Assembly: GCF_009914755.1 (NCBI RefSeq)
Contig: NC_060948.1
Reading direction: 5' to 3' (one strand)
DNA length: 64,000 bases
Origin: the human T2T-CHM13v2.0 reference genome, Homo sapiens
Part shown: in pieces, positions 1 through 21,905 of the stretch
Numbering within the stretch: position 1 is the first letter of the stretch
Layout of the letters: every line of letters begins with the position of its first letter
Translations under genes and position numbers: made by a program
Notes under the pieces: generated by a model
Databases searched by the model: none
Seen by the model: the letters and a program-made list of their open reading frames with translations, nothing else
What the model was told of the DNA's origin: nothing

Positions 1-2114
1 AATTGATTTGAAAATATTGACCTATCATTGTTTACAAAAGTGAGTTTTGTGTTAGTTAAACCATAGAAACCGTTTTGCTAGTATTGCGTATGATACTGGG
101 GAATGATGCCCCAATACAGTACGTTTTCATAGATTGCTTTAAAATAATTCAAGTGCAGTCTTTTTATTTTCCCTCAAGTATAATTCTGTGATGAATAAAA
201 TGACAATCTTAGCTAGAGAAACTTTCTTTGTTCTATTTAAAATAAGAACATGGGAGTTTCAGCTTGTGAGAACTTTAAAGTCAGGTATCTATAAAAGAGT
301 GGATAACCTAACACTATTATTTAACATGGGAATTGAATAATATATTTAAGAAACTGATGATATTGGTATAGAAGAAATTTTATGTGAATATACGGTAAAG
401 TTTATAAAATTCCGGACACCTGGGTGTTCTCACCATGGCATTTTTGAGATATCACTTTTCTCACATCTAGGTTTAAAATGAAATTATATAACATGTTATA
501 CAAGATAAGATGACATTTGGGTGGAATAGCGACATGATGAAAGCTTCTTTATAAAGTTTTTTTTTTTTTTTTTGACAAGAGGAGGCAAGAGTTGTTAATA
601 CTTCTCTTCATTTGACACACACATAAATAGGTGAAGCAGATGAATTCATACATGCAATTATGTAACAGAGACTTAACAAACATTTCAGAGCTGAGCTCAT
701 CTTTTTTTCTGAATTGAGTTTGTGAAATGGTTGTTTAATGCTTTAGAAATGCTTAGAAATGCTTGTGCAGAGAGGTTTTAATATGTGGGCAAAGGTATTT
801 CACTGAAAATGAATTGCAGTTGTAAACCACCTGGATTTAGCTAGTAGCATAATGAGTACAATGCTTGCATGGGACTCCTGTTGGCTTGCTTTCTGAAAAA
901 AGAAGTGATGCTAGCCATCTTGTTTGTTCTCACCTGACTCACACAGAGCATCTCTGGGATAGCTGTGTAAATACTCATTTATGCCACTTCTCTGAGCATG
1001 TCTTCAATATTTCATTTTTGTTAACCATGAAGTGTGAATTGCCTGGTGTCCTTGAGATGAAGATTTTATGACTAACACGTGGGACTTTCTACTGTGGGGT
1101 GATCACTGGCAAACTCATAACCAAAACTAATATCAGACCCTATTCCAAGCTAAAGCTTTGGCCAATGAAATGACAGATTGTGAAGAATGCAGACATTATA
1201 CTCTTGGCTGATTTCTCCTTTCCTGTTTCAAGCAACCTCTCTGAAAGTGGAGGGACTCATGACAATTCTCATGTTGCAGGGAAGAATCATTTTGCTTCTC
1301 TTGCAAGAAGTGTTTCTGATTCCAAAGCCAGTTATCAGAGTGTTTCATCCCTCATTGTTGGTGCCATATGCCAGAGACAGACAACTACAGTCAGTACTGT
1401 GTGCTTTCATGTTTATCATCTCCTGGAAGGAAGGATGTGCTCTGGGGACTGAAGAAGACAGAGGGGGCTTTGTCAGCAATTTTGGCCTTGAACGTTAAAG
1501 AACTCATTCACTTTTAAAGCCCTAATACATTTGCAGCACTATAAATAAGAACCTGTTTTCCCAATGTATACAGTGATTCTGAGGTGGCCTCAATACTACT
1601 TTTTAATGTGAAAGAACAATGATTAAATTTGAGTATACTGAAGGTCGTAAACATTATGAAATCACTGTCCTTACTCTCTTGACATAGAAGTTAGTTCCAT
1701 GATGTACTTATCATCGAGTTAAAGAGATGCCTTTTTCTGAAATTCTGAAATGTGTCCAAGTGGTCCAAAATTATATCATCTTTTCTAGGCCCATAGTTTT
1801 ACCAGTGGAAAGTAGTTGGGTTACCGGCCGTGTATCTTTATGGGTCTGCAGCAACATCAGTTGTTGCCTCCTCAGAAGAAAGAATTCAACTGAGGGGCAT
1901 AAAGCAGAAAAAGGGACCAAGGCAAGTTTTGGAGCAGAGAAGTTTATTTAAAAAGGCTTTAAGACACGAAAAAAAGGAAAGTATGCTTGGAAAAGACTCA
2001 AGTGGGCAACTTGAAGAACAAGTGTGCTGTTTAACCTTTGATATGATTTGTCTGTGTCCCCACCCAAATCTCATCTTGAATTGTGGCTCCCACAATTCCC
2101 ATGGGTTGTGGGAG
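1..2114 (+). repeat. Left arm (inner end) of a giant palindrome, probably human Y palindrome P6
   Basis: Reverse complement of 48323-50436. ORFs 865..1071, 1180..1452, 1187..1498 and 1727..1951 (+) have identical translations at 49366..49572, 48985..49257, 48939..49250 and 48486..48710 (-); coordinate sum is constant at 50437. Confidence 0.97.
1818..2038 (-). mobile_element. MER50-like ERV1 LTR, 3' part (arm copy)
   Basis: Mirror of 48399-48619, which reads TTATGCCCCTCAGTTGAATTCTTTCTTCTGAGGAGGCAA...GTTGCTGCAGACCC...CCGGTAAC. Confidence 0.7.
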
Positions 2115-3330
2115 AGTGTGGGTAGCAAGCCACCTAGTTTCAGAGGCAAGAGACAGAGGGCGTGAGCTGTTCTATTATAATAAACTGTATAAAACAACAA
2201 GAGTTATACTAGACATAGATCATAGATATGATCGTATATGGATATCATTAATCGTTAGTTTGTAACAATTACTCTTTATTCCAATACTGTATTAATCCTT
2301 GCTCTATAATCATAAGCTATGAAAAAACAGGCCATGCAGAGATAGGAGCTGAGGGGACATAGTGAGATATGACCAGAAGACAAGAGTGTGAGCCCTCTGT
2401 TGTGCCTGGACAGGACTTCTAAATGGCTCCTTGGTCTAGCGGTACCACCAGCATCTGGGAAGATGCCCTTTTCTAAGTGGACCATGGTCTAGTGGTAGCA
2501 TCAGTGCCAAGGAAAACCACCTGCTACTTAGCAGATTGGGAAAGGGAGTCTCCCTTTCCCTCGGGATGTTTAGATAAGACTCTACTCCTCCACCTCTTGT
2601 GGAATGCCTGACATCTGTTAGGCCTGCCCACAGTTATCCAGAGGTCTAACCATCTCCCTGTGATGCTGTGTTTCAGTGCTCATTCTCCTAGTCTGCTTTC
2701 ATGTTCTACCCTGTACACCTGGCTCTGCCTTTTAGATAGCAGTAGCAAAATTAGTGAAAGTACTAAAATCTCTGATATGCAAATAATGGCTTAGGCTGTC
2801 CTCTCTCCCTGCCTCGGTTGCCAGGCAGGGAAGGGCTCCCTGTCCAGTGGACACGTGACCCACGTGACCTTACCTATCATTGGCAATGACTCACCCTCTT
2901 TACCCTGCCCCTTTTGCTTTGTATCCAATAAATAACAGCACAACCAGATATTTGGGGCCACTATCAGTCTCCGCGTCTTGTTTGTAGTGGTCAAACGGGC
3001 CCAGTTTTCTTTTATCTCTTTGTCTTGTGTCTTTATTTCTAGAATCTCTTATCTCCTCACAGAAGAAGAAAAGCTCACTGACCCTGTGGGGTTGGACCTT
3101 ATGGGAGAAACCCAGTGGAAGTAATTAAATCATGGCAGCTGGTCTTTCCCATGCTGTTCTCATGGTAGTGAATAAGACTAAAGAGATCTGATGGTTTTGT
3201 AAAGGAGAGTTTCCCTTCACAAGTTCTCTTCTCTTCTCTGACACCATGTGAGATGTGCCTTTCTCCTTCTGCTGTGATTGTGAGGCCACCCCAGCCACTT
3301 GGAACTGTGAGTCCATTAAACCTCTTTTCA
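2039..3330 (+). mobile_element. THE1-type MaLR LTR split by LTR13 (2039-2116 and 3104-3330), 3' end missing
   Basis: Starts TGATATGATTTGTCTGTGTCCCCACCCAAATCTCATCTTGAATTG; resumes after the LTR13 with GTAATTAAATCATGG...GGAACTGTGAGTCCATTAAACCTCTTT. Confidence 0.85.
2117..3103 (+). mobile_element. Solo LTR13-like (HERV-K/HML group) LTR
   Basis: Starts TGTGGGTAGCAAGCCACCTAG...GAGGCAAGAGAC and ends GACCCTGTGGGGTTGGACCTTATG; ~1 kb; 6-bp target-site duplication (TSD) GGAGAG (2111-2116) / GGAGAA (3104-3109). Confidence 0.8.
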
Positions 3331-3347
3331 AAAAAAAAATTTAAAAA

Positions 3348-3945
3348 TTTGATCATGTCATTTTCATGTTAGCTGGTTATTTTGCACATTATTTGGTGCA
3401 GTTTCTTCATAGTGTCAGTGGTCTTTATAAATTTGGTATGTTTTTGCAGTGGCTGGTATCAGGTTTTTCTTTCCCCTAGTGAAGCTTTTTATTTTTTCTA
3501 GAGATGGTCTTTCACGACATTGCCCACATGGTTTCAAACTTCTGACCTCAGGTATTCTGCCTGTCTCTGCCTCCCAAAGTGCTGGGATTACAGGTATGAG
3601 CCACCACACCTGGCCAATGTCACTTTTTAATGATTTTATTTCTTTCTCTTGCCTGATTGCTCTGGATAGGACTTCCAGTACTATGTTGAATAGGACTAGT
3701 GACAGAGCATCCATAACATTTTCTGGTTTTCAAGAATAATGCTTCCAGTTTTAGCCCATTTAGTATGATGTGTTGTCATAGATAGATCTCATTATATTGA
3801 AGTACATTCCTTCAATGCGTGGTAGTGCATGCCAGTTTGTTGATTTGAGGGTTTTTAACCCAAAGGGAGACTGGATGTTTTCAAAAGACTTTTCTGAGTT
3901 TATTGAGATGATCATGTGGTTTCTGGTTTTGGTTCTGTGTATGTA
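3348..3945 (-). mobile_element. Antisense L1 fragments with an Alu left-monomer fragment (~3490-3615)
   Basis: ORF 3415..3714(-) contains [20 protein letters not shown] and 3760..4011(-) contains NHMIISINSEKSF, both L1 ORF2-like; Alu CCTCCCAAAGTGCTGGGATTACAGG. Confidence 0.8.
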
Positions 3946-4897
3946 TCCCACATTCTCTTTACTTATCCATCTTCTTAGGGTAATACTGTCCTTTGGAGAT
4001 GAGTATTTCAATCATCTTTCTTTCTACTTTAAATATTTGTACTAGAGGATCTTCAAGCCATCTTCCTGAAGACATTGACTTATAATTCACTGAGAACATG
4101 AAACCTATTCAGAAGAAGGTTTGATCTCTAATTTATCCCTGAAAGAATTATCTGTATTTGGGCTTTGCCTGTTTCATATTTTAACAGATCAAATGTGCCT
4201 ACTTTTATCAAAGACTTTCTTTACTATCTGGTCATGGATTTATTTCCTGGTAGACTTCTTCAATCTTCACTGCAGAAATGATATCATGTTCCTATTAACC
4301 ATGAGTTTTTCTCTCTGTATGTCCCTAATGAGAAAACAAGCACACTCTCTTGACTCCAATATTAGAACACAGAAGTTTGTGCAGTTTGATTTCTTATGCT
4401 CAATACCATCTTGCTTTTCTTTGTCTTCACAGAGGAAACAATATATCAAGAAAACTGTCTGTGTGTACTAACTCAGCATTTCTACTCTCATTCTTTCCTT
4501 AACAATGTTGAGTCATTCTCTGTCCTTTTTCAGCTTATACTGTTTCATTGCATTAATTGAAACTTTCCACATATATCTGTCTGTTCTGGTACATTTATTT
4601 TATATAACATGAAAATAATCCATCTCTTTCTGGGTGGGTTTGTAGAATTCTCCATTAAATCCAACTCTTCTTGCTGTCATTTCTAAGGTTGCATCTCTGT
4701 ATAATTAATTTTTGTATTCTGCCCATGTCTATTATTATAGTAGTTATTCCAATTCTTCTCAAATCTGACTTGATATTTCCTATTTCCCTAGAAAACAATT
4801 CACAAGGGAAATACCATTGTTGTTTATTCAGAATGATCCTTTGAATAAGGACCCTCTTCAGTATTCAATAATCAACCCTCTTAGAAGAGGCTCACTT

Positions 4898-5204
<307 letters not shown>

Positions 5205-5873
5205 TTAATGAGGAGGCATCAATTGTTCCACTTTACATTAAAAAAAAGTCCAGGAAGCTTGGCAGGACTTGGAGAATCAATTGTAGTCAATCCATGAAGG
5301 CAGTGAGTTCAGGCACCTCTGTGATATGTCCCAAATCCACCTAGCTGCCCACTCTCCACACCCTAGTCTCTACCATTTAGGCTATGCTCAGATGGACACC
5401 ACTGGAGCAGAAAATTATGGTGACATACAAAGAGAGCAACCATAAATATTTACTGGGTGAAGGATGGAAGAAGCTTGGGAAGTGAATAATGTCAATCACA
5501 TGACCTACAGCTGTGACACCTTTATGATAGCATCTGCAAATAGGAAATCCTGAGGTATTTTTATAGGAATAAACTATGTATTAAAAATTATATGGCACTA
5601 CCTAGCATTTGATAAGCAAATGGTAATAAAGAGTATTACCTTTGAATATCCTTTGTAAGTTCTCTCCCTAAATGTTTCTATTTTGATTGTCCAGTAAAAA
5701 GCTCAGGATTTTCAATTATCTCAGTTGCTATCAATTTACCTAACCACTAGGCTTCCTTAAATGTGCCTTTCCAAGGTTCTTAGAACTAATATTTTAATTG
5801 TGTGATTATGATCCTCTTCATAAATAAATATGATTTTGGAGGGCATTGTTCATGTGTTCATCATTATAGTTAT

Positions 5874-8800
5874 AAGCATGCTTATCTAATCCTACATGCC
5901 CATCCTGCAATATGGAAAGAAAGGGAATTCTTAACCTCTGGGGGGAACCCCCTTTAAATAACACAAGGAAATCATGGAGTTATTGCACGCAGTCTGAAAG
6001 CCCAAGGATGTGGCCATCTTACACTGCCAAAGCCACCAAAAAGGTGAAGTAGGAAAGGCAGAAGGGAACCATCCGGCAGATGATGAGGCCAAAATTGCTT
6101 CCAGTTGGAACCTCCCATTGGAAATACCTACAGAAGGACCCTTGATATGGAACAATCCTGTCCAAGAGATTAAGCCCCAGTATTCCACGAATGAAACAGA
6201 ATGGAGACTTTCACAGGGGCATGGTTTTCTCCCCTCAGGGTGGTTAATGACAGAAGAGAGAAAGGTACGAATACTCAAAGCCAGCCAATGAAAAATACTA
6301 AGACCCTTCACCAAACTTTTCATATCCATATTGAGAACACTCATCAAATGGCCAAATCCCTATTTACAGGCCCAAATCTCCTCTGGACCATCCGACAAGT
6401 AGTAGTCATAGCCTCTGAGGTGTGACAAAGGAGTAATCCCTTGGTCTATCATAAGGCCCCTTTGGGGCAAAAAAGAATACATCACTATCCCAGAAAGAAC
6501 TGAAAGTTAGACTTCACCCATTTGCCTATATCTAGGGGATTTCAATGCTTGCTGGTCTGTGTTGTTGCCTTTATAAATTGGATAGAAGCTTTCCCCTGCA
6601 AGACAGAGAAGGCTCAGGAAGTGGTTAAAGTCCTAATTCATTACATAATTCCTAGGTTTAGGCTTCACCAAAGCTTACAGAGTGAGAATGGCCCGGCTTC
6701 TAAAGCCACAATAACTCAGGGAATTTCCAGGACACTAGGGATAGAGTATCATCTTCACAGCACCTGGATGCCAAAACCCTCAGGGAAGGTGGAAAAGGCA
6801 AATGAAACACTCAAGAGGCACTTAAGGAAATGAATACAAGAAACTTTTCTCCCATGGGCTACTTTCTTGCCCATGGTCTTCTTGAGAATACAAAATACTC
6901 CTGACAAAATGAGGCTCAGTCCATATGAAATGCTATATGGACCATCTTTTCTCACAAAGACCTCCTGCTTGATCAGAAAATGGCCAACTTTGTCAAATAT
7001 ATAACTTCTTTGGCAAAATACCAACAAAATGTTGGAAACCTACCTGAAGGATGTCACAGAGAAAAGGGAATGGAGTTGTTTCAACTGCAACATCTAGTGT
7101 TGGTCAAATCTCTCCTGTCTACCTCCCCATTTATGGATTCTTTGTGGGAAGGACCATGCTCAGTAATCCTCTCTACCACCACTGCAGTTAAGGTAGCAGG
7201 AGTGAAATCCTAGATTCACCACACCTGAGTTAAACTTTGGACACTCCCTGAGTAATCTGTGGGACCAACAACTCGAGAGTCCCAAGATAAGCCAGACCAG
7301 CCTTGATACACCTGTGAGCCATTGGAGGACTTGCATCTCCTATTTTGGAAGAAAACATCACAGACCAAAAAGGCTCCTACAGCTGATCCTGAGGAAAAAC
7401 CACTTCCTACTTTAAAAAATAAGTGAAAACCTGCATAATCTTTAACACCTCTCCTTGCCCCTTTAATGGAACCATTTTACTCTTTCATCACATTATTAAG
7501 AAGCATACTAACCATAATTTTTGCAATATGACTATATACTGTAGCTCCTGCCAGGACAAAAATCCTAATCACAACAACCTTTTTTCTATCATCCTTCCTT
7601 CTGACAGCAACTTACTCCTACGTTTAACTAAGACTGAGTAAAATAATCTCATCTTCCAGAGCACCCTCTTTACCTTCCTACTTACTCTTTGCCTATCTAT
7701 TCTTCTTTCTTCCTTGCATACCCCATACAGCCGCCCCTCCCTTTTCACTAGCTTCTAATTACATCTACAAGACTCTCGTCTTAACTCTCTCCCTGCTAAA
7801 TCAGTCCAATCCTTCCCTGGTAAATGACTGTTGGCTTTGCATTTCTCTATCAACCACTGCTTACGTTACCACTCCCGTTCCTGCAAAAAACTGGGTCTCT
7901 ACTAACTTAACCTACCACCCTTGTTATGAAGGAAGATATCCTTTCTGACTTCTAAATATGCAATTATTAGCTGACTTTCCTATCTCTGATATATCCAAGA
8001 ATATCTTAACAGGATGCACAATTCAGCTTCTACTTTCTTACATTTCTAACTTCACCTATTACACAAGCAATGAAAAGCCCATATATGCCTCTGTAAACAC
8101 GAATACCATCTTAATTTTCCAAGTCCCTTTATGCACCCAATGCAACCTCTTATCAGGCCTGCCCCTGTGGCACCTACTTCCCCATTAGTGTAATTACAAG
8201 CTACAACTTCAAGCCCAACTGGTCATAGAAACTTCCAAGTCACCCAAAAAGCTCCATTCAAATGGCTTGTTCACTTCTCAGGACCTCCAAAAATCATTAT
8301 CTCCTTTTTGCTTAACAAACAGTCTGGGTTTTGTAATGGCAGGCATACTCTCTGCATGACCATTCAACTGTGGACCACCTGCAGCAGTGTCCCCATGACT
8401 TATGATTGCCTTCTCATCCCCTCTTTCAATCACTCTCTCAAATGGTTCCTAGTAGATACAAAATGGTTTGTTCTCCAATGGGAAAATAGAACACAGGGAG
8501 CCACTCAGTTTGCTCCCAGCACTCCTTTCCAGCTGCTCACCATAGCTACCTTGGCAAGTAGTCTAGGAGTATGGGAAAATGAAAAAAACAAACTCACACA
8601 CCTTTAAAACATACACAACCTGTCTACCCAGCCAAGGCATATTCTTCTTATGTGGAACTTCAACCTATATCTGCCTCCCCACCAACTAGACATGAACCTG
8701 CATCTTAGTCTTCCTAAGTCCCAGTGTTGACATTGCCCCAGGAAATCACACCCTATCAGTGATTTCACAGTGATGCACCTCAAAGCTCAAGTCCATCAGT

Positions 8801-9526
8801 GCAGGCCATACAATTAATACCCTTACTTACTAGGTTGGAAAGGGCGACTGTTAAAGGAGCCAGAATAGCCAGTTTATCTACTTCATTATCCTACTACCAC
8901 ACACTCTCAAAGGATTTCTCAGACAGTTTGCAAGAAATAACAAAATCTATCCTTACTCTACAATCCCAAATAGACTCTTTGGCAGCAGTGACCCTACAAA
9001 ACTGCTAAGGCCTAGATCTCCTTACTGCTGAGAAAGGAGGACTTTGCACCTTCTTAGGTGAAGAGTGTTGTTTTTACACTAACCAGTCCAGGATAGTATG
9101 AGGCACCAACCAGCATTTACGGGAAAAGATTCTGAAATCAGACACATGCCTTTCAAACTCTTATACCAACCTCTGGAGTTGGGTGACATGACTTATCCCC
9201 TTTCTAGGTCCCGTGACAGCCATCCTGCTATTAATCACCTTTGGGCCCTCTATTTTTAACCTCCTTGTCAAATTTGCTTCCTCTAGGATTGAGGCCATCA
9301 AGCTACAGATGGTCTTACCAGTGAAACCCCGAATGATCTTAACTAAAAAATTCTGCCAAGGGCCCCTGGACCAAACCACTGGTCCTTTGATTGGCCTACA
9401 GAGTTCCCCTCTGGAGGACACTAAAACTGCAGGGCCCCTTCTCTGCCCCTGTCCAGCAGGAAATAGCTAGAGTGGTCATCACCCTATTCTCAACAGCAGT
9501 TGGGGTGTCCCATTTAGAGGGGGGAT
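5874..9526 (+). pseudogene. 5'-truncated ERV9/HERV-W-group internal region: RNase H-integrase and env, all disrupted
   Basis: ORF 6522..6833 is integrase-like (WIEAFPCKTEKAQEVVK...SGKVEKANETLK). Env TM LQSQIDSLAAVTLQNC then a stop, then [27 protein letters not shown]; cytoplasmic LLITFGPSIFNLLVKFASSRIEAIKLQM; polypurine tract AGAGGGGGGAT before the LTR. Confidence 0.9.
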
Positions 9527-10000
9527 TGAGAGGTGAAGCTGGATGGACTTCTTGGGTCGATGGAGAACCAAGAGAACTTTTCTTTCCTACAAGGAGATTG
9601 TAAAATGAAGCAATTGATGCTCTGTAGCTAGCAAGAGGTTTGTAAAATTCACCAGTCAGTGATCTGCAAAAATGCACCAATCAGCACTCTTTGGCTAGCT
9701 AGAGGTTTATAAAATGGACCAATTGGCGCTCTGTAAAATGGGCCAATCAGCAGGACATGAGTGGGGACAAATAAAAGAATAAAAGCTGGCAACCCCAGCC
9801 AGCAGCATAAACCTGCTTGGTTCCAGTTCCACACTGTGGAAGCCTTTGTTCTTTCACTCTTCACAATAAATCTTGCTGCTGCTAACTCTTTGGGTCTATG
9901 CCACCACTAAGAGCTATAATACTCACTGTGAAGTTCTGTGGCTTCATTCTTGAAGTCAGCAATACCACAGACCCACTGGAAGGAACCAACTCCAGACACA
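9527..10000 (+). mobile_element. Short LTR12-family 3' LTR
   Basis: TGAGAGGTGAAGCTGG start, CCAATCAGC repeats, AATAAATCTTGCTGCTGCT, ends GGAACCAACTCCAGACACA. Confidence 0.9.
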
Positions 10001-10230
10001 AGGAGATCAAGACCATCCTGGCTAACACAGTAAAACCTTATCTCTATTGATAATACTAAAAATTATCTGGGCATGGTGGTGGGTGCCTGTAGTCCCAGCT
10101 ACTTGGAGGAATAAGGCAGGAGTATGACATGCACCCAGAAGGCAGAGCTTTCAGTGAGCCAAGATCACACCACTGTGCTCCAACCTGGGCCACAGAGTGA
10201 GACTCCACCCCACAACTCCCCACAAAAAAA
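10001..10230 (+). mobile_element. Alu lacking its 5' ~70 bp, abutting the LTR
   Basis: Begins mid-left-arm AGGAGATCAAGACCATCCTGGCTAACAC. Confidence 0.85.
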
Positions 10231-10645
10231 TGGGAAAAGCTCCTGCTTTCTGGTATTTCTGTGTCCTAAATCCAGATGACAATAGCTTGCTCATTTTTAC
10301 TTAATGCTCAGCATAATTAATACAATTATAGCAAGTTGGCTATAATTGGCTAAATCCATACATATTGATGAATGATTAAAACTGTTACATAAAAAATAGT
10401 GAACAGGACAATTATTTTCACTAACACATCGTATGATTTTGGAACAGTATACAAATGCTCTCTTTACAAATATAGAAGATCCAGATAAACATGAAGAACT
10501 GAAAGAAGTTAAAAAACTGTGCCATAATGAATACTAGCAATATCCCTGGTTTAAGTTGACTCTATTTGCTAAAAAGGTAATGTATGGAAGTAATTCCTTC
10601 TCAATAGTTACAGTAATCTGATGACCTTTCTTAATAATAAACTAA

Positions 10646-10974
<329 letters not shown>

Positions 10975-12394
10975 CTAAAAACTGTTGATCTTAAGGAAGG
11001 GTAATTAACGTTTGTTCTATCTGGTGCTAACATAAATTTCTGGGATCTGTGATTTCTTGCCAGTGTAAATTACTCAAAAATGAACTAGTGATCCACATGG
11101 ACCTAACAAGAAGTTGAACTTAGCCATCATTGAGAAATTATTTTAGACACAATTTAAATAATAAGAGGCAAGTTGCTCAAATGCAAAATGAATGGTTAGT
11201 TTGTTCAGTGCAATTTGAAATCCTTTTGAAATGCCAAATAGCCCTTTTAAAAATAAGCATTTACTTGTAAGTAGTTAAGTTGCTGTTAGAGTTTGGGTTT
11301 TTTTGGTTTTTGTTTTTATTTTTTGTTTTTGGATTACTGTGCTGAGAAAACAGTTGCACATGAATTCATTAAAGCATTTGGATGCTTTGCTGCCCAAAGC
11401 TTAAAGTCTGAGTATCTAGTGGTGTGTCTTCATTGAGTAAAGGTTACTTCAAGGCTTCTATCTTCAACAGTAAATAGCAGCTTACTCTTTTAGGCATATG
11501 AACATTACATTTTATTAATATTTTAAGAACAGAGTAACACAATTCAATTATCACTCCCTCCTTCCATTCTTCAAAGATTTTTATTTTGATTATAAAGTGA
11601 AGACATTTATTAAGTTGCCCAATGATGATACAGTACTCACCCCGATCTTGTGTGATGATATTGCTATCTTCCACTTATATCCACAGAGTTAGAAATTGGC
11701 TAATAAAATATCAGTGGACATTCTGGTATCTCAAACACAAAAACCCTGTCAGCCATTATTTATATGGTATTTCTATTTCAAAGGCATTATTATATTAAAT
11801 TCAAAATATTAATAATTACATATATGTATATTTTATATTATTTTATATACAATATTGTATACATATATTATCAAATTATTTAACATCATTCAGTCTTTTC
11901 AACTTTCAGGAGTTTGCTTTAACTACCTGTGATTAATACAATGTAAAAATACAATAACCTCAATTATTATTTACAAAGTGCGTAAGACTTTTTCTGGACA
12001 TAGTAAGAACCATATAGTTCTTAACGGGAAATCTATGTTCACAGTAATTTTTTAACTCTCTGATGCACACACATCATAGAAGTATAGCTCTGAGATGTCC
12101 CTTTCCATTAAACCAAATGACCAAGCTTTATGGCATAGGATAAATGTGAGATGCATGATGGTAGCAACTGCTTAGTAAGGAGACATAGGTAATGTTTGGA
12201 GAAGACAACAAGGGACATTTCCTAACACTGGTGTGAAATAAATTTGATGGTCAGAAGATAGAAACAGACAGAGAAGAGAGAGATGGCAATGGAGATGGGT
12301 GGACACCATGCTGATAGGGGATACTCTTGGTTGGCAATTTTGGAAAGAACTTACAAGAGCTGAGAGTTCACTCTCCACATACCATGCTACATCT

Positions 12395-12855
12395 CCCTCT
12401 CTCCCTCCCACTCTCTATTCCTCCCTCTCTCTCTTCCTTCCTTGCTTCCATTCTCTTTATCTTTCCCTTTTTTGTTCTCCTTCCTTTCTCCCCTCCCTGC
12501 CTTTCTTCCTTGCCTTCTTTCTTCTTTCCTCCTTTCCCTTTTCTCTCTTTCTTTGTTCCCCTGCCTCCCCTCCTCCTTCCCTCCATTCCCATTTTTGAGA
12601 CAGAGTCTTGCATTGCTGCTCAAGCTGGAGTAGACTGGTGCTGTGATGTCTCACTGAACAGCTTCAACCTCCTGAGCTCAAGTTGCTGGGACTACAGGTG
12701 TGTACCACCACGCCTGGCTAATTTATCAAATTTTTGGTAGAGACAAGTTCTTGCTTTGTTGCCTAGGCTAGTCCCCAACTCCTGAGCCCTAGTGATTCTC
12801 CTGCCTGAGTTTGCAAAATGCTGAGGTAACAGGCATGATCCATGGTGCCTGACAC
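12395..12855 (-). mobile_element. AluJ-like element (~12592-12855) with long CT-rich low-complexity tail
   Basis: TTTTTGAGACAGAGTCTTG...CTGGGACTACAGG; the pyrimidine tract explains the S/L/P/F-rich and E/R/K/G-rich ORFs. Confidence 0.85.
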
Positions 12856-13484
12856 TGCTTCACTTCTCTCTGTTTCTCTCTATCTTTTTCTCTCTCAACT
12901 GCCTGTCTTTTCTCTGTTTTCATCACTCAAAACCATGTAAAATTTCTTCCATTTCCATTGTGAAGTCTTTCAGCAGGGGTGCATTTCCTGTTTATCTTTG
13001 TATACATTGTTTCTCTTTCTTATGTTTTAAACACTTTCACATATTTCATATGTGCTTCTTTTATTAAGCTGGAAATTTAAATAATCTCTACAAGTCAGTG
13101 TTTTCAAACCATTAGATATGACAACTGACTGACTGGCTATTGTGCCACCTCCTCTGGCTTACTGTCCATTCAGTACTGAACACTGTACGTGGACTTTTTC
13201 ACAACTGGGTGGTAATGAGTCTGATTATCTATCCATTTCATAATGTGGTCATTTAAGAACTGGAAATAAAAAAGTAAACAAATAAACTTGGCTGCCTGAA
13301 AAAATAGTTTAGCCTATGTGTATCCTTTTTTAAAAGTGATTCATGGGAAATCATAATGCACAGTTACTATTCTCAACAAATTTATGTTTCTCAAACCCCT
13401 ACTCATTCAAAACATACTTTAGGGGAATTTTTTTTTCTTTCTGAAAACTAGCTGAGTTTTTTATGGATTGTGTTCTATTATCAG

Positions 13485-13502
13485 TATCTATCTATCTATC
13501 TG

Positions 13503-13534
<32 letters not shown>
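13485..13534. repeat. (TCTA)n microsatellite with one TCTG
   Basis: Direct reading. Confidence 0.9.
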
Positions 13535-13535
<1 letters not shown>

Positions 13536-13643
13536 TGTCTATCATTGTCTACCATTCACTTTCTTTCTATTATCTGTCATCTGTCTTTATCTATCATCCC
13601 TCATCTACCCAACATCCATCTATCTACTTTCATCATCTCTCAA

Positions 13644-13663
13644 CTTTCTTTCTTTCCTTCCTC

Positions 13664-13725
<62 letters not shown>

Positions 13726-13744
13726 GTCTTTCCTTTCTTTCTTT
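13644..13744. repeat. (CTTT)3 N8 (CTTT)15 N9 (CTTT)3 STR, probably DYS534
   Basis: Core of 15 units counted at 13664-13723; structure and flank CATCTACCCAACATCCATCTA match my recollection of DYS534. Confidence 0.8.
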
Positions 13745-13913
13745 CCTTCTTTCTCTCTCTCTTTCTTTACAATCTATCTATATCTGTCTATTCATCTAAC
13801 ATCTTTGTCATCTACCTAATATTTATCTATATCATTCTAATTATGTCTCTTCTAACTATATAACTATGTATTATCTATCAATCTTCTACCTATCATCTTT
13901 CTAGCTAGCTATC

Positions 13914-13961
<48 letters not shown>
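13914..13961. repeat. (ATCT)12 STR, probably DYS533
   Basis: 12 units counted; flanks CATCTAACATCTTTGTCATCTACC and TGGTTGAGTTAAGAACTGATCA match the recalled DYS533 amplicon ends. Confidence 0.85.
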
Positions 13962-13964
<3 letters not shown>

Positions 13965-14634
13965 ATCTATCATCTTCTATTGTTTGGTTGAGTTAAGAAC
14001 TGATCATGAATAAATACATTTCATTGGTGATCTCTACTTACAGCCATGAAATAACAGCGTGCTGTAAGTCAGTAAGCCACCCTCTTTGGGAGTTGTTCCA
14101 CACTCAAAGCTTTTGGATGCAAAAAGGCAAGTTAATTATATTAGCATTTTTCAAGCTTTCCATCTCCTCTAACTGGTGTTTCCAAAAGCTGAATCTGAAT
14201 AGATTAATCATCATTTCTCATTTGGGCTAATTAGTGCATATAATTAATTAATATTCTTACTTTCTAAATGCTATGAGTTTTTCACCGTCCCTCCCATGTA
14301 TTATAACACCTGATTGTCATAACCACATTTTAAATTGAGATGAGCAATATCAATGAAAATAATATTTTACACATCACTGTGTCTGATGTGCCTTCTCCAA
14401 AATTCTGATCAAAATGCCTGCAAAAATACAAGTGAAAAATCCAAATAACTACAAAATGTAACCATTATTTATGTGTGAAAATTGAGAGATAAATATAAAG
14501 CATATATGTATCCTATTAAAAGGTATGTGAAGGATATCTATTTTGTAGTCAGATATGTATGTAAAAACATTGAATGTACAGATGTCAGAGAAAACTCAGT
14601 GTGAAACAGAGAGAATATAAATTTCTCTTCAAAA

Positions 14635-15590
14635 CCTTTTAATGGATACATCATAGTTGTACATATTTATAGGATACTTGTGATAATTGATAGAAGCATA
14701 CAAGGTATAATGACCAAATCTAGGTAAGTGTGATATCAATTACCACCAACATTTATCATTAGTGTGTGTTGCGAACATTTCAAATATACTCTTCTTTCAA
14801 TTTTGAAATAGACAATAAATGATTAATTATATTCATCATATTGTGCTACCAAGCACCAGATTTTATTCCTTCTACTTAACAGTATTTTTGTACCGTATTA
14901 ACCAATCCATTTTTCTTCTGTCTCCTCACTACCCTCTTCAGCCACTGGTGACCACTATTCTACTCTCCACCTCCATGAGATCCACTTTTGTAGCTTCCAC
15001 ATATAAGTTAGAACATGAAGAATGTGTGTATCTGTGCCTGGATTATTTTACTTAACATAATGTTCTCTGGTTCCATTCATGTTGTTGCAAATGACAGAAT
15101 GTCCTTTTTTCAAAGGTGGAATAGTAATCCATTGTGAATATACACTACATTTTATTTATCCATTCATCCACTGAGAGACACTGAGGTTGATTTTGCATCT
15201 TAGCTATTGGGAATAGTGCAGAAATATGAGTATAAATAAATTAACCATCATTTCTTAATCTGGCTAATTAGTGCATATGATTAATGATTCATATTCATAG
15301 TTTCCAAATGCTATGAGTTTTTCCCAATTTATCACCTGTATTATAACACTTTATTATCACAACCACATTTTCATATTGCGATCGACAATATCAATGAAAA
15401 TAATATTTCACACATCACTGTCTTTGATATATGCTGCATCATAAGCAGGGGGTGCAGGTATCCCTTTGATATATTGCTTTTCTTTCTTTTGGATAAATAT
15501 CCAGTGGGTGGATTCCTGGATCATATGGTAGCTCTATTGTTAGTGTTTGGAGGAAGCTCTGTACTGATTTCCATGGAGGCTGTACTAGGG
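14635..15590 (-). mobile_element. Old L1MA-type 3' end, interrupted at ~15220-15432
   Basis: GTTCCATTCATGTTGTTGCAAATGACAGAAT...TTATCCATTCATCCACTGA...GGATCATATGGTAGCTCTATT. Confidence 0.8.
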
Positions 15591-15981
15591 ATGCCAAGGA
15601 GAAAGGATGAGTGGTTGTTTCCTCTCAAGACTACATAAGTGAATCAATGACTTGGTGATGAGTGATGTATGGTTTCAGAAGGCCAATAATCTTATTTGGA
15701 GACCACTATGGTCATAGAACAATTTCTGTTAACTGAGTGCAATAAGGAATATCTTTGAATGGTTATAAAATATACTATCTGACATACTTTGCATCAACCA
15801 CTCATGAGGTTGGATAATGGGTCTCGCTCAGTTTAGGGATTTGTTATAGACTTAAAGACTTGCAGTGGACACTTTAATACTCTCAGCAGAGGCTCCTCCT
15901 GCACCTACATGGCACGATCCTTCCCTTCTCCCCAGGCCTTTCAATTCAATGCCTGTGAGGGTTGTTTAAGAACACTCTCCT

Positions 15982-16302
15982 AGCTGGGACTGGTGGCTCA
16001 CACCTGTTGTCCCAGCACTTTGGGAGGCCAAAACAGGTGGATCAACTGAGGTCAGGAATTTGAGACCAGCCTGGCCAACATGGCAAAACCCAATCTCTAT
16101 TTAAAAATATGAAAAGTAGATGTATTTCTTATATTATATTAGTTGTATTTCTTATATTATTAGGTGTGGTGGTGTGCCTGCACCTCACCTACTTGGGAAG
16201 CTGAGGCAGGAGAATCATTTCAACCTCTGAGGTTGAGAGATAGTGCCACTGCACACTAACCTGGGCAACAGAGCAAGACCTTGTCTCAAAAAAAAAAAAA
16301 AA
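15982..16302 (+). mobile_element. Alu (S-type) with disrupted linker
   Basis: Both Alu arms and poly-A present. Confidence 0.88.
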
Positions 16303-16408
16303 TCATTCTCCCCATCAAAATTTCTGCGGACAAGTGTCTTCTGAAACTTGATTTCCCAGGGAACCCTAAGATCAATGTAATGTAGATAATTTTATGATTT
16401 TTAAATGT

Positions 16409-16410
<2 letters not shown>

Positions 16411-16460
<50 letters not shown>

Positions 16461-16748
16461 TTTTTTGAGATGAAGTCTCACTCTGTCACCCATGCGGTAG
16501 TGCTGTGGTGGGATCTCAGTTCATTGCAAGCTCCACCTCCTTGGTTCATGCCATTCTTCTGCCTCAGTCTCCCAAGTAGCTGGAACTGCAGGTGCCCACC
16601 ACCACACGTGGATAATTTTTTTGCATTTTTAGTAGAAATGGGGTTTCACCATGTTAGCCAGGATGGTCTCAATCTCCTGACCTTGTGATCTGCCCACCTC
16701 GGCCTCACAAAGTGCTGTGATTACAGGGGTGAGTCACTGCACCCGGTC
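16411..16748 (-). mobile_element. Alu (Sc/Y-like) with adjacent (TA)n tract at 16412-16455
   Basis: TTTTTTGAGATGAAGTCTCACTC...GTGAGTCACTGCACCCGGTC. Confidence 0.9.
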
Positions 16749-16931
16749 ATATTTTTATATAATTCTTTACGCTGATAGTACTAGTCAGCTTGGGTTGCCA
16801 TTACAAAGTTCCACAGACCAGGCTGCTTGAATAACAGACATTTATTTTTCTTGAATCCTAAGACCGGTCTAGTGTAAATAACTTTATGATTTTAAAATGC
16901 ATTTTATTTTCATATAATTATTTATGCTCAC

Positions 16932-17650
16932 AGTACTAGTCAGCTTGGGCTTCCATAACAAAATCCCACAGACTGGGCTCCTTGAACAACAGACATTTAT
17001 TTTCCCACAGTCCTGGAGGCGGGAAGGTCAAGATCTAGGTGTGGGCAAGGCTAGTTCCTTCTCAGGCCTCTCTCTTTGGCAGGTAGAGACCATCTTCTCT
17101 CTGTGACTTTGTATGATCATCCATCTGTGCATGGTGTCTGTGTCCTAATCTCCTCTTTTTTTAAATTTTTATTTGTTGATACAGGATCTTACTCTGTCCC
17201 CCAACCTGTAGTGCAGTGACATGATCATGGCTGACTATAGTCTTTGCCTCATGAGCTCCGGTGATCCTCCCACATTAGCCACCCTAGTAGCTGGGACTAC
17301 AGATATGCATCACTATGTCCAGCTAATTTTTTTGTTTTTTGTATTTTGTGTAGAGACAGGTTTCACCATGTTGTCCAGGCTGGTTTCGAACTCCTGGACT
17401 CAAGCAACTCAGCCTCCTCAGCCTCCCCAAAAGCTGGAATTACAGGCATGAGATACTATGCCTGGCCAATCTCCTTTTCTTAAAAGGACAGCAGTTCTAT
17501 TGGATCAAGTTCCACCCTAGTGACCTTATTTTACCCTAATCACCTTTTCAAAGACACTATTTACAAATATGGCCACATTAGAAGGTCTTAGGGGTTATGA
17601 CTTCAATATACACATTTTTTTTTTCTGGAAACACAATTCATTCCATAGCA
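16932..17650 (-). mobile_element. MLT1-type MaLR LTR containing an antisense AluJ (~17155-17467)
   Basis: CCATAACAAAATCCCACAGACTGG...AACAACAGACATTTATTTTCCCACAGTCCTGGAGGC...ACACAATTCATTCCATAGCA. Confidence 0.8.
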
Positions 17651-18414
17651 CCTAACAGTGACTAAAATGTCTTTTTGAATTTCCAGTTTTCCTACCATAT
17701 TTTAAGACACTGGGTCCTTCATCTGGAAAAAACAAATTAAAAAGAGCATTGAAATGAGATTTCAAAGTAAGACTTTAAGAAAATAATGCAACTTATACAT
17801 TTACTATCAATTATCTTCTATATTATATATGTTTATATAATATTTTCACAGATATATGTACACAAATTAGTGTAGATAGACTAAATATACAGATGTTCAT
17901 TGTTTCATTTCAGTATCTCATCTGCATTTCAAAAAATACATTCATCCAAATGTGCATATTATATGAATTCCAGAATGCATATTTTCACTTACTCACTACT
18001 GAGAAGTTGTAAAATAATTTGCAGTTTAATGACATTTGCGTGAAAGACTCCAAACATATGTTGTTTACATTGGACAGGGAAGAAAGAAAATTCATCAGCT
18101 TTAATCTCATTTGAACCTAATTGACTTAAACTGTAAGTTTACTAAATTTAATATAAATGGTTCTGAAAATGTTTTCAGGTCTTCATAGATGGTACTAGAA
18201 GCGACAAGAAAAGATCAACATTTTTAAACTAAATAGGTCTGGGAAGGATTATTTCAAGATATGACATGCTACTGACTCTCAAATTTCCAGAATTGTCCTT
18301 GTAAAGATAAGAACTCTTCATGGATTGGATAGGATGCATAAGATTTTCTTAGCAAATATTTCAGTGAGAACTTTGTTTTCCTCCATGCTGCACATTCTTT
18401 TTGTTCAGTTTTAT

Positions 18415-18852
18415 TTAATTTTGAGGCAGGCTCTCATTCTGCCTCCCAGGTTGAAATGCAATGGAGTGATACTGGCTTACTGCAGCCTCGACTTCCTGTG
18501 CTCAATCAATCCTACTGCCTCAGCCCCTACAGTAGTCGGGACTACAGGCATGTTCAATCACACCAGGATATATGTGTGTATATATATATCACTCTCAAAA
18601 TATATATATAAATATATATTTATAATATATAAATATAAATTTATAATATTATATATATTATATAATATAAATTTAAATATGTATATTTATATATAATATA
18701 TTTAAATATTTATTAAATATTTTTAAAAAATTTTAAAATATTAAATATATTTATATTTAATTATAAACATAATTATAAACATATATAAATTTATAATATA
18801 TAAAATATATATTTATATATGTATGTGTATGTGTGTGTGTGTATATATATAT

Positions 18853-18903
<51 letters not shown>

Positions 18904-18943
18904 TATATATATATGGCAGAGACAGGGTCTCTCTATGTTTCCC
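18415..18943 (-). mobile_element. AluJ remnant with ~350-bp AT/CA-rich expansion in its linker (18568-18915)
   Basis: Alu right arm to ...CACCAGG, then low-complexity TA, then resumes GCAGAGACAGGGTCTCTCTATGTT. Confidence 0.8.
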
Positions 18944-19094
18944 TGTTAAATGCTGCATGTTCTGCACATTCTCTTTAACAGTCTTACATTGTGGCTTTTC
19001 TTTCTGGCTGAAAATGTATCAGTTTCCCCAGATGCTGACTCTAATATCCTTACATGCATTTTCAGTTTGTGCAATGGCACATCTTTGCAAAACT

Positions 19095-20440
19095 AGTGTT
19101 ACTATCAAAAAGACAAGAGACAACAAATGATGATGATGTGGAGAAAACGGAACACTTGTGCACTGTTGGTGAGAATGTAGATTGGTGCAGCAACTATGGA
19201 AAATAGGCAAGAATGCAGATTGGTGCAGCCATTACGGAAAACAGTATGGAGGTTGCTAAAGAAATTAAAAGTAGAATGACCATATGATAAGCAATCCATA
19301 TTCTTGGTATACAGTCAAAGGAGATGAAATTATCTTGTAAAGATATCTGTATTCCTATGTTCACTGCAAAATTATTCACAAGAGCCAAAATCTGCAACCT
19401 ATCTTTCTATTTTTGATATATCTCCCTTTTCTATCTCCCTAATCTATTTCTTCTATTTATCTATCTATCCTCTATCTCCCTACCTATCTCTATTTGTCTA
19501 TCAATCTATCAATGTATCTATCTATCTTATCACCTATCTCTCTACCTGTTTTCTATCTGTCTAATCGTCTATTTATATCTTTCTACCTATCATCTGTCTA
19601 ACTATCTATTATCTATCTATAATCTATCTGTTTATCTAGTTTATCTAGCTACCCTATCTATTTATGTATCAACTATGTGTCTACCTATTTATCCATCTAC
19701 CTTATCTATCATCTATCTACCTAGCTTATCTATCTACATCTATCAACATACCTACCTATCTACATTTCTAATCTATGTATCCATCTAATCTATTTATCTG
19801 TCTGATACCTATAGTGTTTATCTCTCTTCTATCTACCTATCTCTCTCTATCTGTCGTCTATCTCTCTCCATCCTTCATCTATCTCTCTATGTACCTGATC
19901 TATCTATTTGAAACTATCTGTGCATCTGTTGATCTATATTGGAATATTATTCAGCATTATAAAAGGAGGCAATCTTCCCATTTGCCATAGCATGAATGGA
20001 TGAATATGCTAAGGGAAATGAACCAGATGCAAAAAGAAAATATTGCATGACCTCACTCCTATATATAATCTAAAAGAAATAACCAATCAATCAAAAAATA
20101 GGGAAACATACAGAAATAGGGAATAAAGCCGTGGATATCAAGGGCAAGGCTCTAGAAGGAACTGTGGAGATTTAGCTCAAAGGTTACAAAGAATCAGATA
20201 TGTCAAATTAATAAGCCTAGATATGTAATGTACATCATGAGGTCTACAGTTAATAAAATTGCATTTCATTAGATATTTTGTCAAACAAGTAGATTTTAGT
20301 TGATCCTGTCACTTAACTGTAACTGTGTAAGATGATAGGTATGTTAGTTTGCTTCACTATAGTAACCAACTTACTATCTATAGGTATCCCAAAACCTCAT
20401 TATGTGAACCTTAAATATACAAAATAAAATCTATTTAAAA
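19095..20440 (+). mobile_element. L1MA-type 3' portion interrupted by a degenerate (TCTA)-rich tract (~19398-19935)
   Basis: GATGTGGAGAAAACGGAACACTTGTGCACTGTTGGTGAGAATGTA...GGAATATTATTCAGCATTATAAAAGGAGG...AAAATAAAAT. Confidence 0.8.
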
Positions 20441-20714
20441 TGGAATAGTATTTTTAAAAAACCCCAAAGGCACTGAATATAAGGATCTAAGAGGGTTGAA
20501 ATGATACAGACAGACACAAGAAGAGCAATAATGTTCTGTGGGTAGCTGTGGAATGTGTGTGTTTCCTCTTCCAGGATTGTGTTTCACACATGCTTGGGGG
20601 ATCCTTCTCTGTACCTGCACTGTTCTGATTTTCAAATATTTCCCCCTTAACAGGAACCACATATATTTCCTTTAGAGTCATGCATTGAAACAATGTTTCC
20701 TGGACAGTCACACT

Positions 20715-21538: not shown

Positions 21539-21905
<367 letters not shown>

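What the first reader, a model, noticed from the sequence alone, without database searches (positions are those of the whole stretch)
2039..3330. Arm homogenisation stops exactly at an LTR13 insertion; a decayed 'ghost arm' continues beyond it
Seen: identity ends at 2114/48323, inside the target-site duplication of a solo LTR13 present only on the left. Past the LTR13, 3108-3329 aligns without gaps to the reverse complement of 48101-48322 at about 86% (roughly 31 mismatches in 225 bp by hand). Both copies share apparent departures from the THE1 consensus as I recall it (GTGGAAGTAATT, AATAAGACT, GAGGCCAC, CAGCCACTTGG). Inference: the inverted duplication once extended further inward, and the 1-kb insertion blocked conversion tracts, fixing today's arm/spacer boundary. 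The uncoupled segment would then be a clock for when conversion stopped, and ~14% divergence would make the duplication much older than the arm identity suggests.
Basis: partly seen in the sequence, partly recalled or inferred. Interest (0 to 1): 0.85.

Follow-up and report, generated by a model that had tools for sequence, protein, structure and literature searches.

The report
Fossil arm end in Y palindrome P6
At the inner edge of human Y-chromosome palindrome P6, a 1-kb retroviral LTR sits exactly where the two arms stop being identical, and the 220 bases beyond it are a decayed leftover of the original arm, which suggests the palindrome is far older than its near-perfect arms imply.

Summary
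The window holds the inner arm ends and the 46,208-bp spacer of Y palindrome P6. The arms are 100% identical up to 2114/48323. A 987-bp solo LTR (2117-3103) with 6-bp target-site duplications (2111-2116 and 3104-3109) sits only on the left, inside a THE1-type LTR. Beyond it, 3108-3330 matches the right copy without gaps at 85% (33 of 223 differ).

That identity is ordinary for this repeat family. Three results show common origin:
- Both halves share rare states, and two 25-26-base patterns carrying them occur nowhere else in the genome.
- An ML tree makes the halves sisters (100/94).
- A collinear chrX gametolog, used as outgroup, gives 7 Y-specific changes shared by both halves.

So the ghost arm is real. 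It ends at 3330, at a rearrangement junction where 40 kb of X-collinear sequence is skipped.

The halves decoupled at about 0.72 (0.56-0.89) of the X-Y split age. Per-lineage decay (about 8%) matches the LTR's own decay (8.5% non-CpG). This fits the LTR as the conversion barrier but does not prove it. One left-specific base present in both target-site copies argues for some divergence before the insertion.

P6 therefore probably dates to roughly 25-35 Myr, older than documented. Interest is moderate.

The parts
1..2114 (+). Inner end of the left (proximal) P6 arm. It is 100% identical to the reverse complement of 48323-50436.
   Evidence: 2114 bp, 0 mismatches.
2039..2116 (+). First ~78 bases of a THE1-type LTR lying inside the left arm. 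It is the mirror of 48398-48321.
   Evidence: other family copies match from query position 3 (window 48398). Searches show the sequence.
2111..2116 (+). Target-site duplication, copy 1 (GGAGAG). Arm identity ends at 2114, 2115 is A against right-arm G, and 2116 matches again.
   Evidence: The register follows from the gapless alignment.
2117..3103 (+). It starts TGTGGG, and its terminal CA is mutated to TG.
   Evidence: 40 scored copies at 82-86%. Searches show the ends of three other copies; 109 of 974 sites differ from the majority of six autosomal copies.
3104..3109 (+). Target-site duplication, copy 2 (GGAGAA).
   Evidence: It aligns to the same right-arm hexamer (48326-48321) as copy 1.
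3110..3330 (+). Ghost arm: THE1 positions ~85-300. This is the decayed remnant of the original left arm.
3331..3633 (.). Junction patch. It contains an A-rich run (3331-3345), a 129-bp fragment of a younger high-copy repeat (3346-3474) and an Alu-like piece (3486-3630). Homology of the left copy to the right copy and to chrX stops here.
   Evidence: 88-91% identity to 40 scored of 3353 candidates..
3634..26375 (-). Left spacer block. It is collinear with chrX 4,776,449 down to 4,757,121 in minus orientation, and has a Y paralog at chrY 17,675,139-17,694,683. The coordinates are outer limits from sampled segments, not a continuous alignment.
34013..48099 (+). Right spacer block. It is collinear with chrX 4,802,067-4,816,842 in plus orientation and runs uninterrupted into the right arm. 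Only part of it was sampled.
48032..48398 (-). Complete THE1-type solo LTR on the right, straddling the arm/spacer boundary. 48100-48326 is the partner of the ghost. 48032-48099 is the LTR tail that the left copy lacks.
   Evidence: family copies match query positions 3-369..
48323..50436 (-). Inner end of the right (distal) P6 arm, as far as its partner lies inside the window.

Best explanation
The window is the centre of human Y palindrome P6.

Proposed history:
1. A THE1-type solo LTR was already present in the ancestral X/Y sequence.
2. After X-Y recombination stopped here, an inverted duplication on the Y produced the second arm. Its inner end reached at least THE1 position ~300 (window 3330 / 48100).
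3. An ERVK-type LTR then integrated into the left copy, 222 bp short of that inner end.
4. Arm-to-arm gene conversion has kept everything outside the LTR identical, up to 2 bp from its edge.

The 1-kb heterology, backed by only ~220 bp of homology and then non-homologous sequence, cannot be crossed or copied. The short island is too small to recombine on its own. It has drifted to 15% divergence and is a fossil of the former arm.

Shown: the structure, the common origin of the two halves, and the relative dates.
Inferred: that the LTR insertion was the event that stopped conversion, rather than a later marker of an already decoupled edge.

The confidence given (0.62) is for the whole statement including the causal step. 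That the ghost is a true remnant of the duplication I hold at about 0.95.
For: - Structure.
- Common origin from family copies: 10 shared departures from 57 family copies, 4 of them seen in 0 of 57. The pair ranks top of 1711 pairs.
- Genome-wide patterns: exact matches to two patterns carrying the shared states are only the two P6 copies. That is 2 of 49 hits at <=1 mismatch and 2 of 4.
- Tree: the halves are sisters at 100/94.
- chrX outgroup: chrX 4,815,278-4,818,641 is collinear with window 46286-49913 straight across the right boundary.
- Polarised changes in the ghost segment: 3 changes shared by X, L and R; 7 Y-specific changes shared by L and R, including a 1-bp deletion; 11-15 left-only; 16-20 right-only.
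- Timing: mean tip decay is 17.75 of 223, or 8.0%. The LTR's own decay is 74 of 866, or 8.5%, at non-CpG sites and 109 of 974, or 11.2%, at all sites. Decoupling is therefore not older than the insertion.
- Edge effect: identity reaches within 2 bp of the LTR, so edge effects on conversion are small today.
- Literature: passages read in PMC5142424 give HML-4 (LTR13/LTR13A) an age of about 35 Myr.
Against: - Both target-site copies carry A at their fifth base (2115 and 3108), where the right arm, chrX and 53 of 57 family copies have G. The left copy therefore already differed from the right at this site when the LTR integrated, unless the right copy later reverted. Under active homogenisation such a difference within 6 specific bases is improbable.
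- The left spacer block and its Y paralog differ by about 17.5% (identities). By my arithmetic this gives a duplication age of about 0.64 of the X-Y age. That is no older than the ghost's decoupling (0.72, range 0.56-0.89). If the block arrived with the arm, the ghost may have diverged since the palindrome formed.
- The LTR age is an upper estimate, because the majority state of six copies is a poor stand-in for its true source.
- All counts rest on 223 sites.
Confidence: 0.62

Rival explanations
1. The ghost is a true remnant of the duplication but was never, or hardly ever, homogenised. On this view the innermost ~220 bp began to diverge at or just after the palindrome's formation. The LTR integrated later into an already drifting edge. 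It now only marks the point that conversion from the arm side cannot pass.
For: - There is a left-specific A in both target-site copies.
- The decoupling age (0.72 of the X-Y age) is about equal to the age implied by the left spacer block versus its Y paralog. My arithmetic on the identities gives about 0.64.
Against: - Today the arms are perfectly identical to within 2 bp of a heterology. Closeness to an edge therefore does not in itself prevent conversion.
- The ghost's per-lineage decay (8.0%) is not greater than the LTR's own (8.5-11.2%).
- It is unproven that the Y paralog block arrived in the same event as the arm.
Confidence: 0.25
2. Two independently inserted, inverted THE1 copies served as the recombination or fold-back site that created the palindrome. 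On this view the 86% match is only family resemblance.
For: - Homology beyond the LTR is confined to the THE1 element.
- 86% identity is within family background.
Against: - The halves are sisters at 100/94.
- They share 4 states seen in 0 of 57 other copies.
- The state combinations are unique genome-wide.
- The chrX ortholog shares 3 older derived states with both halves and lacks the 7 states the halves share.
- Both halves continue in register from identical arm sequence.
Confidence: 0.02
3. The present 46-kb spacer is what remains of a once much larger palindrome. On this view both sides were full mirror copies of the X-collinear region and later lost complementary pieces: 40 kb from the left, and the far block from the right. 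The THE1 ghost would then be the only inner piece kept on both sides. This reading concerns the origin of the spacer and can hold together with either account of the LTR's role.
For: - Read outward-to-inward, both sides are X-collinear in mirror orientation.
- The left side runs arm, THE1, then a jump from X 4,816,842 to 4,776,449, and on down to 4,757,121.
- The right side runs arm, THE1, then X 4,816,842 down to at least 4,802,067.
- PMC8327919 (passages read) reports that rearrangements concentrate at the centres of X palindromes.
Against: - Apart from the THE1 ghost itself, no inverted homology survives between the two spacer halves other than dispersed repeats.
- The left block has a separate Y paralog in the same orientation. 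That fits equally well with a copy pasted in by a complex replicative rearrangement.
- The model needs at least two large deletions.
Confidence: 0.15

Closest known systems
Human Y palindrome P6 with arm-to-arm gene conversion (Rozen 2003 recalled; Hallast 2013, PMC3723533, passages read; Bonito 2021, PMC8600007, passages read)
   Same: Same locus. The arms are near-identical, the spacer is 46 kb, conversion homogenises the arms, and there are no coding genes. According to Hallast 2013, the inner boundaries are conserved in chimpanzee and gorilla.
   Different: The passages I read in these papers treat the inner boundaries as PCR markers only. Neither THE1, an LTR at the boundary, nor a decayed continuation of the arm appears in them. 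In PMC3723533 'LTR' and 'THE1' occur 0 times. In PMC8600007 the single 'LTR' hit is a reference title.
Heterology barriers and minimal homology length for homologous recombination (general knowledge, recalled; not checked against a paper here)
   Same: A large insertion in one partner ends conversion tracts. Homology islands of about 200 bp recombine poorly. Divergence, once started, further suppresses recombination.
   Different: That knowledge comes from experimental constructs and gene families. Here it is read from a natural palindrome with an internal clock and an X-linked outgroup.
Structural instability around the centre of symmetry of primate X palindromes (Jackson 2021, PMC8327919, passages read)
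   Same: Rearrangements, deletions and non-orthologous spacers concentrate at the inner arm and spacer.
   Different: That work compares species and does not describe a transposon-delimited boundary or a decayed arm remnant. Here the evidence comes from within one genome, plus the X gametolog.
X-Y evolutionary stratum 4 gametologous sequence (Katsura 2012, PMC3308322, passages read: p-distance 12% in stratum 4 and 8% in stratum 5)
   Same: chrX 4.76-4.82 Mb matches the P6 inner arm and spacer at p = 12.9% (arm) to 16.9% (spacer). This is in the stratum 4 range.
   Different: P6 is classed as ampliconic. Its use here as X-degenerate-like sequence with an X outgroup is my own mapping. Stratum membership was inferred from divergence only.

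Membership tests
Y-chromosome palindrome (P6) | Two inverted arms with >99.9% identity | tested here: met
   2114 of 2114 identical within the part of the arms that the window holds.
Y-chromosome palindrome (P6) | Unique spacer of about 46 kb between the arms | tested here: met
   46,208 bp lie between 2114 and 48323. PMC3723533 and PMC8600007 describe the P6 arms and spacer. The chrY location comes from the hub annotation.
Former arm segment (left and right THE1 halves derive from one copy by the duplication) | The two halves are each other's closest relatives among family copies | tested here: met
   sisters at UFBoot 100 / SH-aLRT 94 among 59 rows. The bootstrap had not fully settled (correlation 0.95). 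By raw identity the left half has two closer copies.
Former arm segment (left and right THE1 halves derive from one copy by the duplication) | Shared derived states that are absent from the outgroup ortholog and from other copies | tested here: met
   7 Y-specific shared changes, against 2 and 1 for the other groupings; the combinations are unique in the genome.
Former arm segment (left and right THE1 halves derive from one copy by the duplication) | Same boundary behaviour in other primates (longer arms where the LTR is absent) | not testable with these tools
   No other primate assembly is held. The genome search states that the genome has no relatives here.
ERVK-type solo LTR ('LTR13', HML-4) | TG...CA termini | tested here: inconclusive
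   The 5' TGTGGG is present. The 3' end reads TG where three other copies have CA. I interpret this as two transitions.
ERVK-type solo LTR ('LTR13', HML-4) | 6-bp target-site duplication with no internal proviral sequence | tested here: met
   GGAGAG and GGAGAA match at 5 of 6 positions and flank a 987-bp element. One of the three reference copies shows a perfect 6-bp duplication and another a 5-of-6 match.
ERVK-type solo LTR ('LTR13', HML-4) | Assignment to the named Repbase/Dfam family | not testable with these tools
   No repeat library is available. 605 genomic candidates of ~1 kb fit the 545,702 bp of LTR13/LTR13A quoted in PMC5142424.
THE1-type (MaLR) solo LTR | ~365-bp element with thousands of dispersed copies | tested here: met
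   6399 candidates, and scored copies match query positions 3-369. The family name itself was not tested.

The most novel reading that the evidence does not exclude
P6 is not a great-ape-age structure but arose in the catarrhine stem, roughly 30-35 Myr ago. On this reading it formed as part of a larger mirrored rearrangement of X-collinear (stratum 4) sequence. Its 46-kb 'spacer' is built from two mirror-oriented X-collinear blocks, and the THE1 ghost is the last surviving piece of inner arm. The palindrome would then have been lost in the macaque lineage rather than gained in apes. An LTR insertion would have frozen the inner boundary for tens of millions of years.
Probability: 0.3. Interest if true: 0.6.

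Novelty: new member of a known kind. Interest (0 to 1): 0.45.

Why it matters
Y palindromes erase their own history, because conversion keeps the arms identical. Their ages are therefore known only from presence or absence across species.

For P6 the record I read is as follows:
- It is shared with chimpanzee and gorilla, and no P6 ortholog is among the three rhesus palindromes (PMC3723533).
- It is multicopy in most great apes, conserved for more than 13 Myr (PMC7585023).

A segment that escaped conversion, together with an X-linked outgroup and a datable LTR, gives an internal clock. It puts the duplication at no less than about 0.6-0.9 of the X-Y arrest age. That is near or before the ape/Old World monkey split.

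The locus is also a natural measurement of what stops conversion. A 1-kb insertion backed by ~220 bp of homology is a complete barrier, yet homogenisation runs to within 2 bp of it.

This is a refinement of a well-studied system, not a new kind of element.

Tried and rejected
- Overall identity as evidence. Rejected, because it lies within family background.
- Further mirrored homology in the spacer. Sensitive BLAST (word size 7) found only dispersed repeats.
- The 92% inverted pair 22987-23749 / 29918-29155. I considered it a possible relic of an inner palindrome. It is two copies of a young high-copy repeat, 95-96% identical to the 39 other scored copies out of 11,792 candidates, so it was rejected.
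- Mapping the spacer to chrX with long queries. One call failed and one was swamped by a 4.1-kb repeat. I then used short unique segments. One search hit only an old L1-like repeat. The switch between the two X orientations is therefore only bracketed to window 26.4-34.0 kb.
- More LTR copies for dating. The LTR dating rests on six copies chosen from the best hits.
- Cross-species comparison. Not possible with the data held.
- Literature. Searches, and passages read, turned up no description of the ghost arm or of an LTR at the P6 boundary. One search (six terms including 'retrotransposon insertion') returned 0 papers.
- Literature not seen. Rozen 2003, Skaletsky 2003, Hughes 2012 and Bhowmick 2007 were not read and may bear on novelty. 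The supplementary palindrome tables of PMC11168930 were not opened.
Full report
**What is in the sequence.**

The hub annotation places the window at chrY:17,174,001-17,238,000 of T2T-CHM13v2.0. A self-comparison shows that 1-2114 is the perfect reverse complement of 50436-48323 (2114 bp, no mismatch). The 46,208 bp between these arm ends match the published 46-kb spacer of palindrome P6 (PMC3723533 and PMC8600007, passages read).

- On the right the LTR is complete (48398 down to 48032). Other genomic copies match it end to end (40 scored of 6399 candidates).
- On the left its first 78 bases (2039-2116) are followed by a 987-bp element.

**The insert.**

Forty scored copies of 605 candidates align to window 2117-3101 at 82-86%. 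Three copies whose ends I fetched begin TGTGGG and end CCCTACA, and two of the three have clear 6-bp flanking duplications.
- In the window copy the terminal CA reads TG (3102-3103).
- With that reading, the flanking hexamers 2111-2116 (GGAGAG) and 3104-3109 (GGAGAA) both align, without any indel, to the single right-arm hexamer 48326-48321 (GGAGGG on the reverse strand).
- This is therefore a solo ERVK-type LTR with a 6-bp target-site duplication. Perfect arm identity stops at the fourth base of the first duplicate, 2 bp from the LTR.
- The name 'LTR13' could not be checked, because no repeat library is available. The size and copy number fit the LTR13/LTR13A total quoted in PMC5142424.

**The ghost.**

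After the second duplicate, 3108-3330 aligns without gaps to 48322-48100, with 33 differences in 223 sites. BLAST gives 32 in 230 for 3099-3328.

This identity is not remarkable in itself.
- Among 57 other family copies (the distinct best hits), 92% of pairs are closer than this pair.
- Two unrelated copies match the left half at 89%, against 87% for its partner.
- The right half does have the left half as its best match, 87% against 84% for the next.

**Test of common origin.**
1. Column by column, the two halves share 10 departures from the commonest state of the 57 copies. Four of these occur in none of the 57: a 1-bp deletion near 3116-3119, and the bases at 3177, 3264 and 3288. The left half has 12 private departures and the right half 18.
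2. For shared rare states, this pair ranks first of 1711 pairs at every threshold: 4 against a maximum of 2, 7 against 4, and 8 against 5.
3. Two patterns of 25-26 bases spanning the shared states were searched in the whole 3.1-Gb assembly. Exact matches were only the two P6 copies. At up to one mismatch there were 49 hits for the first pattern and 4 for the second.
4. An ML tree of the 59 rows makes the two halves sisters with UFBoot 100 / SH-aLRT 94, a stem of 0.053 and tips of 0.082 (left) and 0.139 (right). The program warned that the bootstrap had not fully settled.

**An X-linked outgroup.**

One of the fetched loci, chrX:4,815,278-4,818,641, is more than a family copy. It is collinear with window 46286-49913, straight across the right arm/spacer boundary, at 80-83.5%. 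It also matches the left arm (84.8%) and the left ghost (86.1%).

The right side is therefore the X-like, uninterrupted arrangement.

With chrX and 56 other copies as references, the 223 ghost sites sort as follows:
- 3 changes shared by X, left and right (older than the X-Y split).
- 7 shared by left and right only (Y-specific stem, including the deletion).
- 9-12 on the X lineage.
- 11-15 on the left only.
- 16-20 on the right only.
- 2 sites group right with X, and 1 groups left with X.

This excludes independent THE1 insertions. The left half is a copy of the Y's own element, so the duplication did reach inward of today's boundary.

**Where the ghost ends.**

The left copy's homology to both the right copy and chrX stops at 3330, about position 300 of the LTR. 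The right copy and chrX run on to the LTR's natural end.

No further mirrored homology exists in the spacer apart from dispersed repeats.

Positions 3331-3633 hold three things:
- an A-rich run;
- a 129-bp piece of a younger repeat, 88-91% identical to 40 scored of 3353 candidates;
- an Alu-like piece.

From 3634 the sequence is again X-homologous, but it matches chrX 4,776,449 downward on the minus strand. That is 40.4 kb from where the ghost left off (reaching X 4,757,121 at window 26375).

The right spacer matches chrX 4,802,067-4,816,842 on the plus strand.

So 3330/3331 is a rearrangement junction, and the detectable former arm is only ~220 bp longer than today's arm.

The left block also has a Y paralog at chrY 17,675,139-17,694,683, at 79-86% identity and in the same orientation. 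The right block has none.

**Dating.**

On the Y lineage the stem has 7 changes and the mean tip 17.75. Decoupling therefore falls at 0.72 of the time since X-Y arrest, with a Poisson interval of 0.56-0.89.

The Y:X rate ratio in this segment is 2.15, as expected for male-driven mutation (the expectation is recalled).

The X-to-arm p-distance is 12.9% (201 of 1553) and the X-to-spacer distance is 16.9% (212 of 1256). This is the range given for stratum 4 (12%) rather than stratum 5 (8%) in PMC3308322.
- That review places stratum 4 between the prosimian and simian splits.
- I recall figures of roughly 40-45 Myr for stratum 4; these are not from a call.
- On that recalled figure, decoupling falls at roughly 25-37 Myr.

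The LTR gives an independent estimate.
- It differs from the majority of six autosomal copies at 109 of 974 sites (11.2%), or 74 of 866 (8.5%) outside CpG-prone columns.
- The autosomal copies themselves differ at 4.4-5.5%.
- The ghost's 8.0% per lineage is thus equal to or below the LTR's own decay on the same chromosome.
- PMC5142424 attributes an age of about 35 Myr to HML-4.
- Because the LTR sits in only one copy and the X-collinear copy lacks it, the duplication must predate the insertion.

**Against the causal step.**

Both target-site copies carry A at their fifth base (2115, 3108), while the right arm, chrX and 53 of 57 copies have G.
- The simplest reading is that the left copy already differed from the right when the LTR integrated. 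That is unlikely if the site was being homogenised.
- A later reversion on the right, or a transient arm difference, are the alternatives.

By my arithmetic on the identities, the left spacer block differs from its Y paralog by about 17.5% and from chrX by about 19.9%.
- This gives a duplication age near 0.64 of the X-Y age, no older than the ghost's decoupling.
- If that block arrived together with the arm, then palindrome birth, LTR insertion and decoupling were close in time. The data cannot then say whether the island was ever homogenised.

I give the LTR-as-cause reading about 0.6-0.65, and the 'never homogenised' reading about 0.25. That the ghost is a true remnant of the duplication I hold at about 0.95.

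**Comparison with what is known.**
- P6, its conversion dynamics and its presence in chimpanzee and gorilla are well described (PMC3723533).
- PMC3723533 also states that no P6 ortholog is among the three rhesus palindromes.
- PMC7585023 reports P6 as multicopy in most great apes, conserved for more than 13 Myr.
- PMC11168930 finds few Y palindromes shared among apes.
- PMC8327919 shows that rearrangements concentrate at the centres of X palindromes.
- In the passages read, and in six full-text searches, I found no description of the LTR at the boundary, the decayed continuation, or the X-collinear make-up of the spacer.
- Several key papers (Rozen 2003, Skaletsky 2003, Hughes 2012, Bhowmick 2007) were not read.

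**Verdict.**

The causal role of the LTR is plausible but open. The age implication, P6 at roughly 25-35 Myr rather than the documented 13 Myr or more, is the most useful product and can be tested directly on existing primate Y assemblies.

This is a new detail of a known system and of moderate interest.

Noticed in passing
window 46286-49913 vs locus L003 (chrX:4,815,278-4,818,641): An X-linked gametolog is collinear across the right arm/spacer boundary of P6. It gives an outgroup for both the arms and the spacer. P6 inner sequence therefore behaves like X-degenerate (stratum 4-range) sequence.
   Followed up: yes
window 48323-49913 vs 46286-47543: The arm has diverged less from chrX (201 of 1553, 12.9%) than the adjacent spacer has (212 of 1256, 16.9%). 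This fits the idea that conversion slows net divergence of the arms. No formal significance test was run in a call.
   Followed up: partly
window 3634-26375: The left half of the spacer is collinear with chrX 4,776,449-4,757,121 in the orientation opposite to the right half. It has a paralog about 0.5 Mb distal on the Y (chrY 17,675,139-17,694,683, 79-86% identity). The right half has no Y paralog. The switch point lies somewhere in window 26.4-34.0 kb.
   Followed up: partly
window 2115 and 3108: Both target-site duplicates of the LTR carry A where the right arm, chrX and most family copies have G. This is a left-specific change older than the insertion.
   Followed up: partly
window 2117-3103: The Y copy of the LTR is 2.3-2.7 times more diverged from the family majority than six autosomal copies are (11.2% vs 4.4-5.5%; non-CpG 8.5% vs 2.9-3.6%). 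This is more than the Y/autosome rate ratio I recall, so the copy may be older or from a different subfamily.
   Followed up: partly
window 22987-23749 and 29155-29918: This inverted pair, 92.4% identical, looked like a small inner palindrome. It is two copies of a young high-copy L1-like repeat, 95-96% identical to many genomic copies.
   Followed up: yes
window ~4899-5201: An Alu-sized insertion is present in the P6 spacer but absent from both chrX and the Y paralog. Their coordinates are contiguous across it.
   Followed up: no
window 5874-10000 and 30100-32050: Two large old dispersed repeats: a ~4.1-kb element at 83-85% identity to many copies, and a ~2-kb element at ~82%. They interrupt the X-collinear blocks.
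   Followed up: no
window 47543-47843 vs L003: About 300 bp of a ~440-bp repeat next to the right THE1 is present on the Y but missing from chrX. This is an indel between the gametologs.
   Followed up: no
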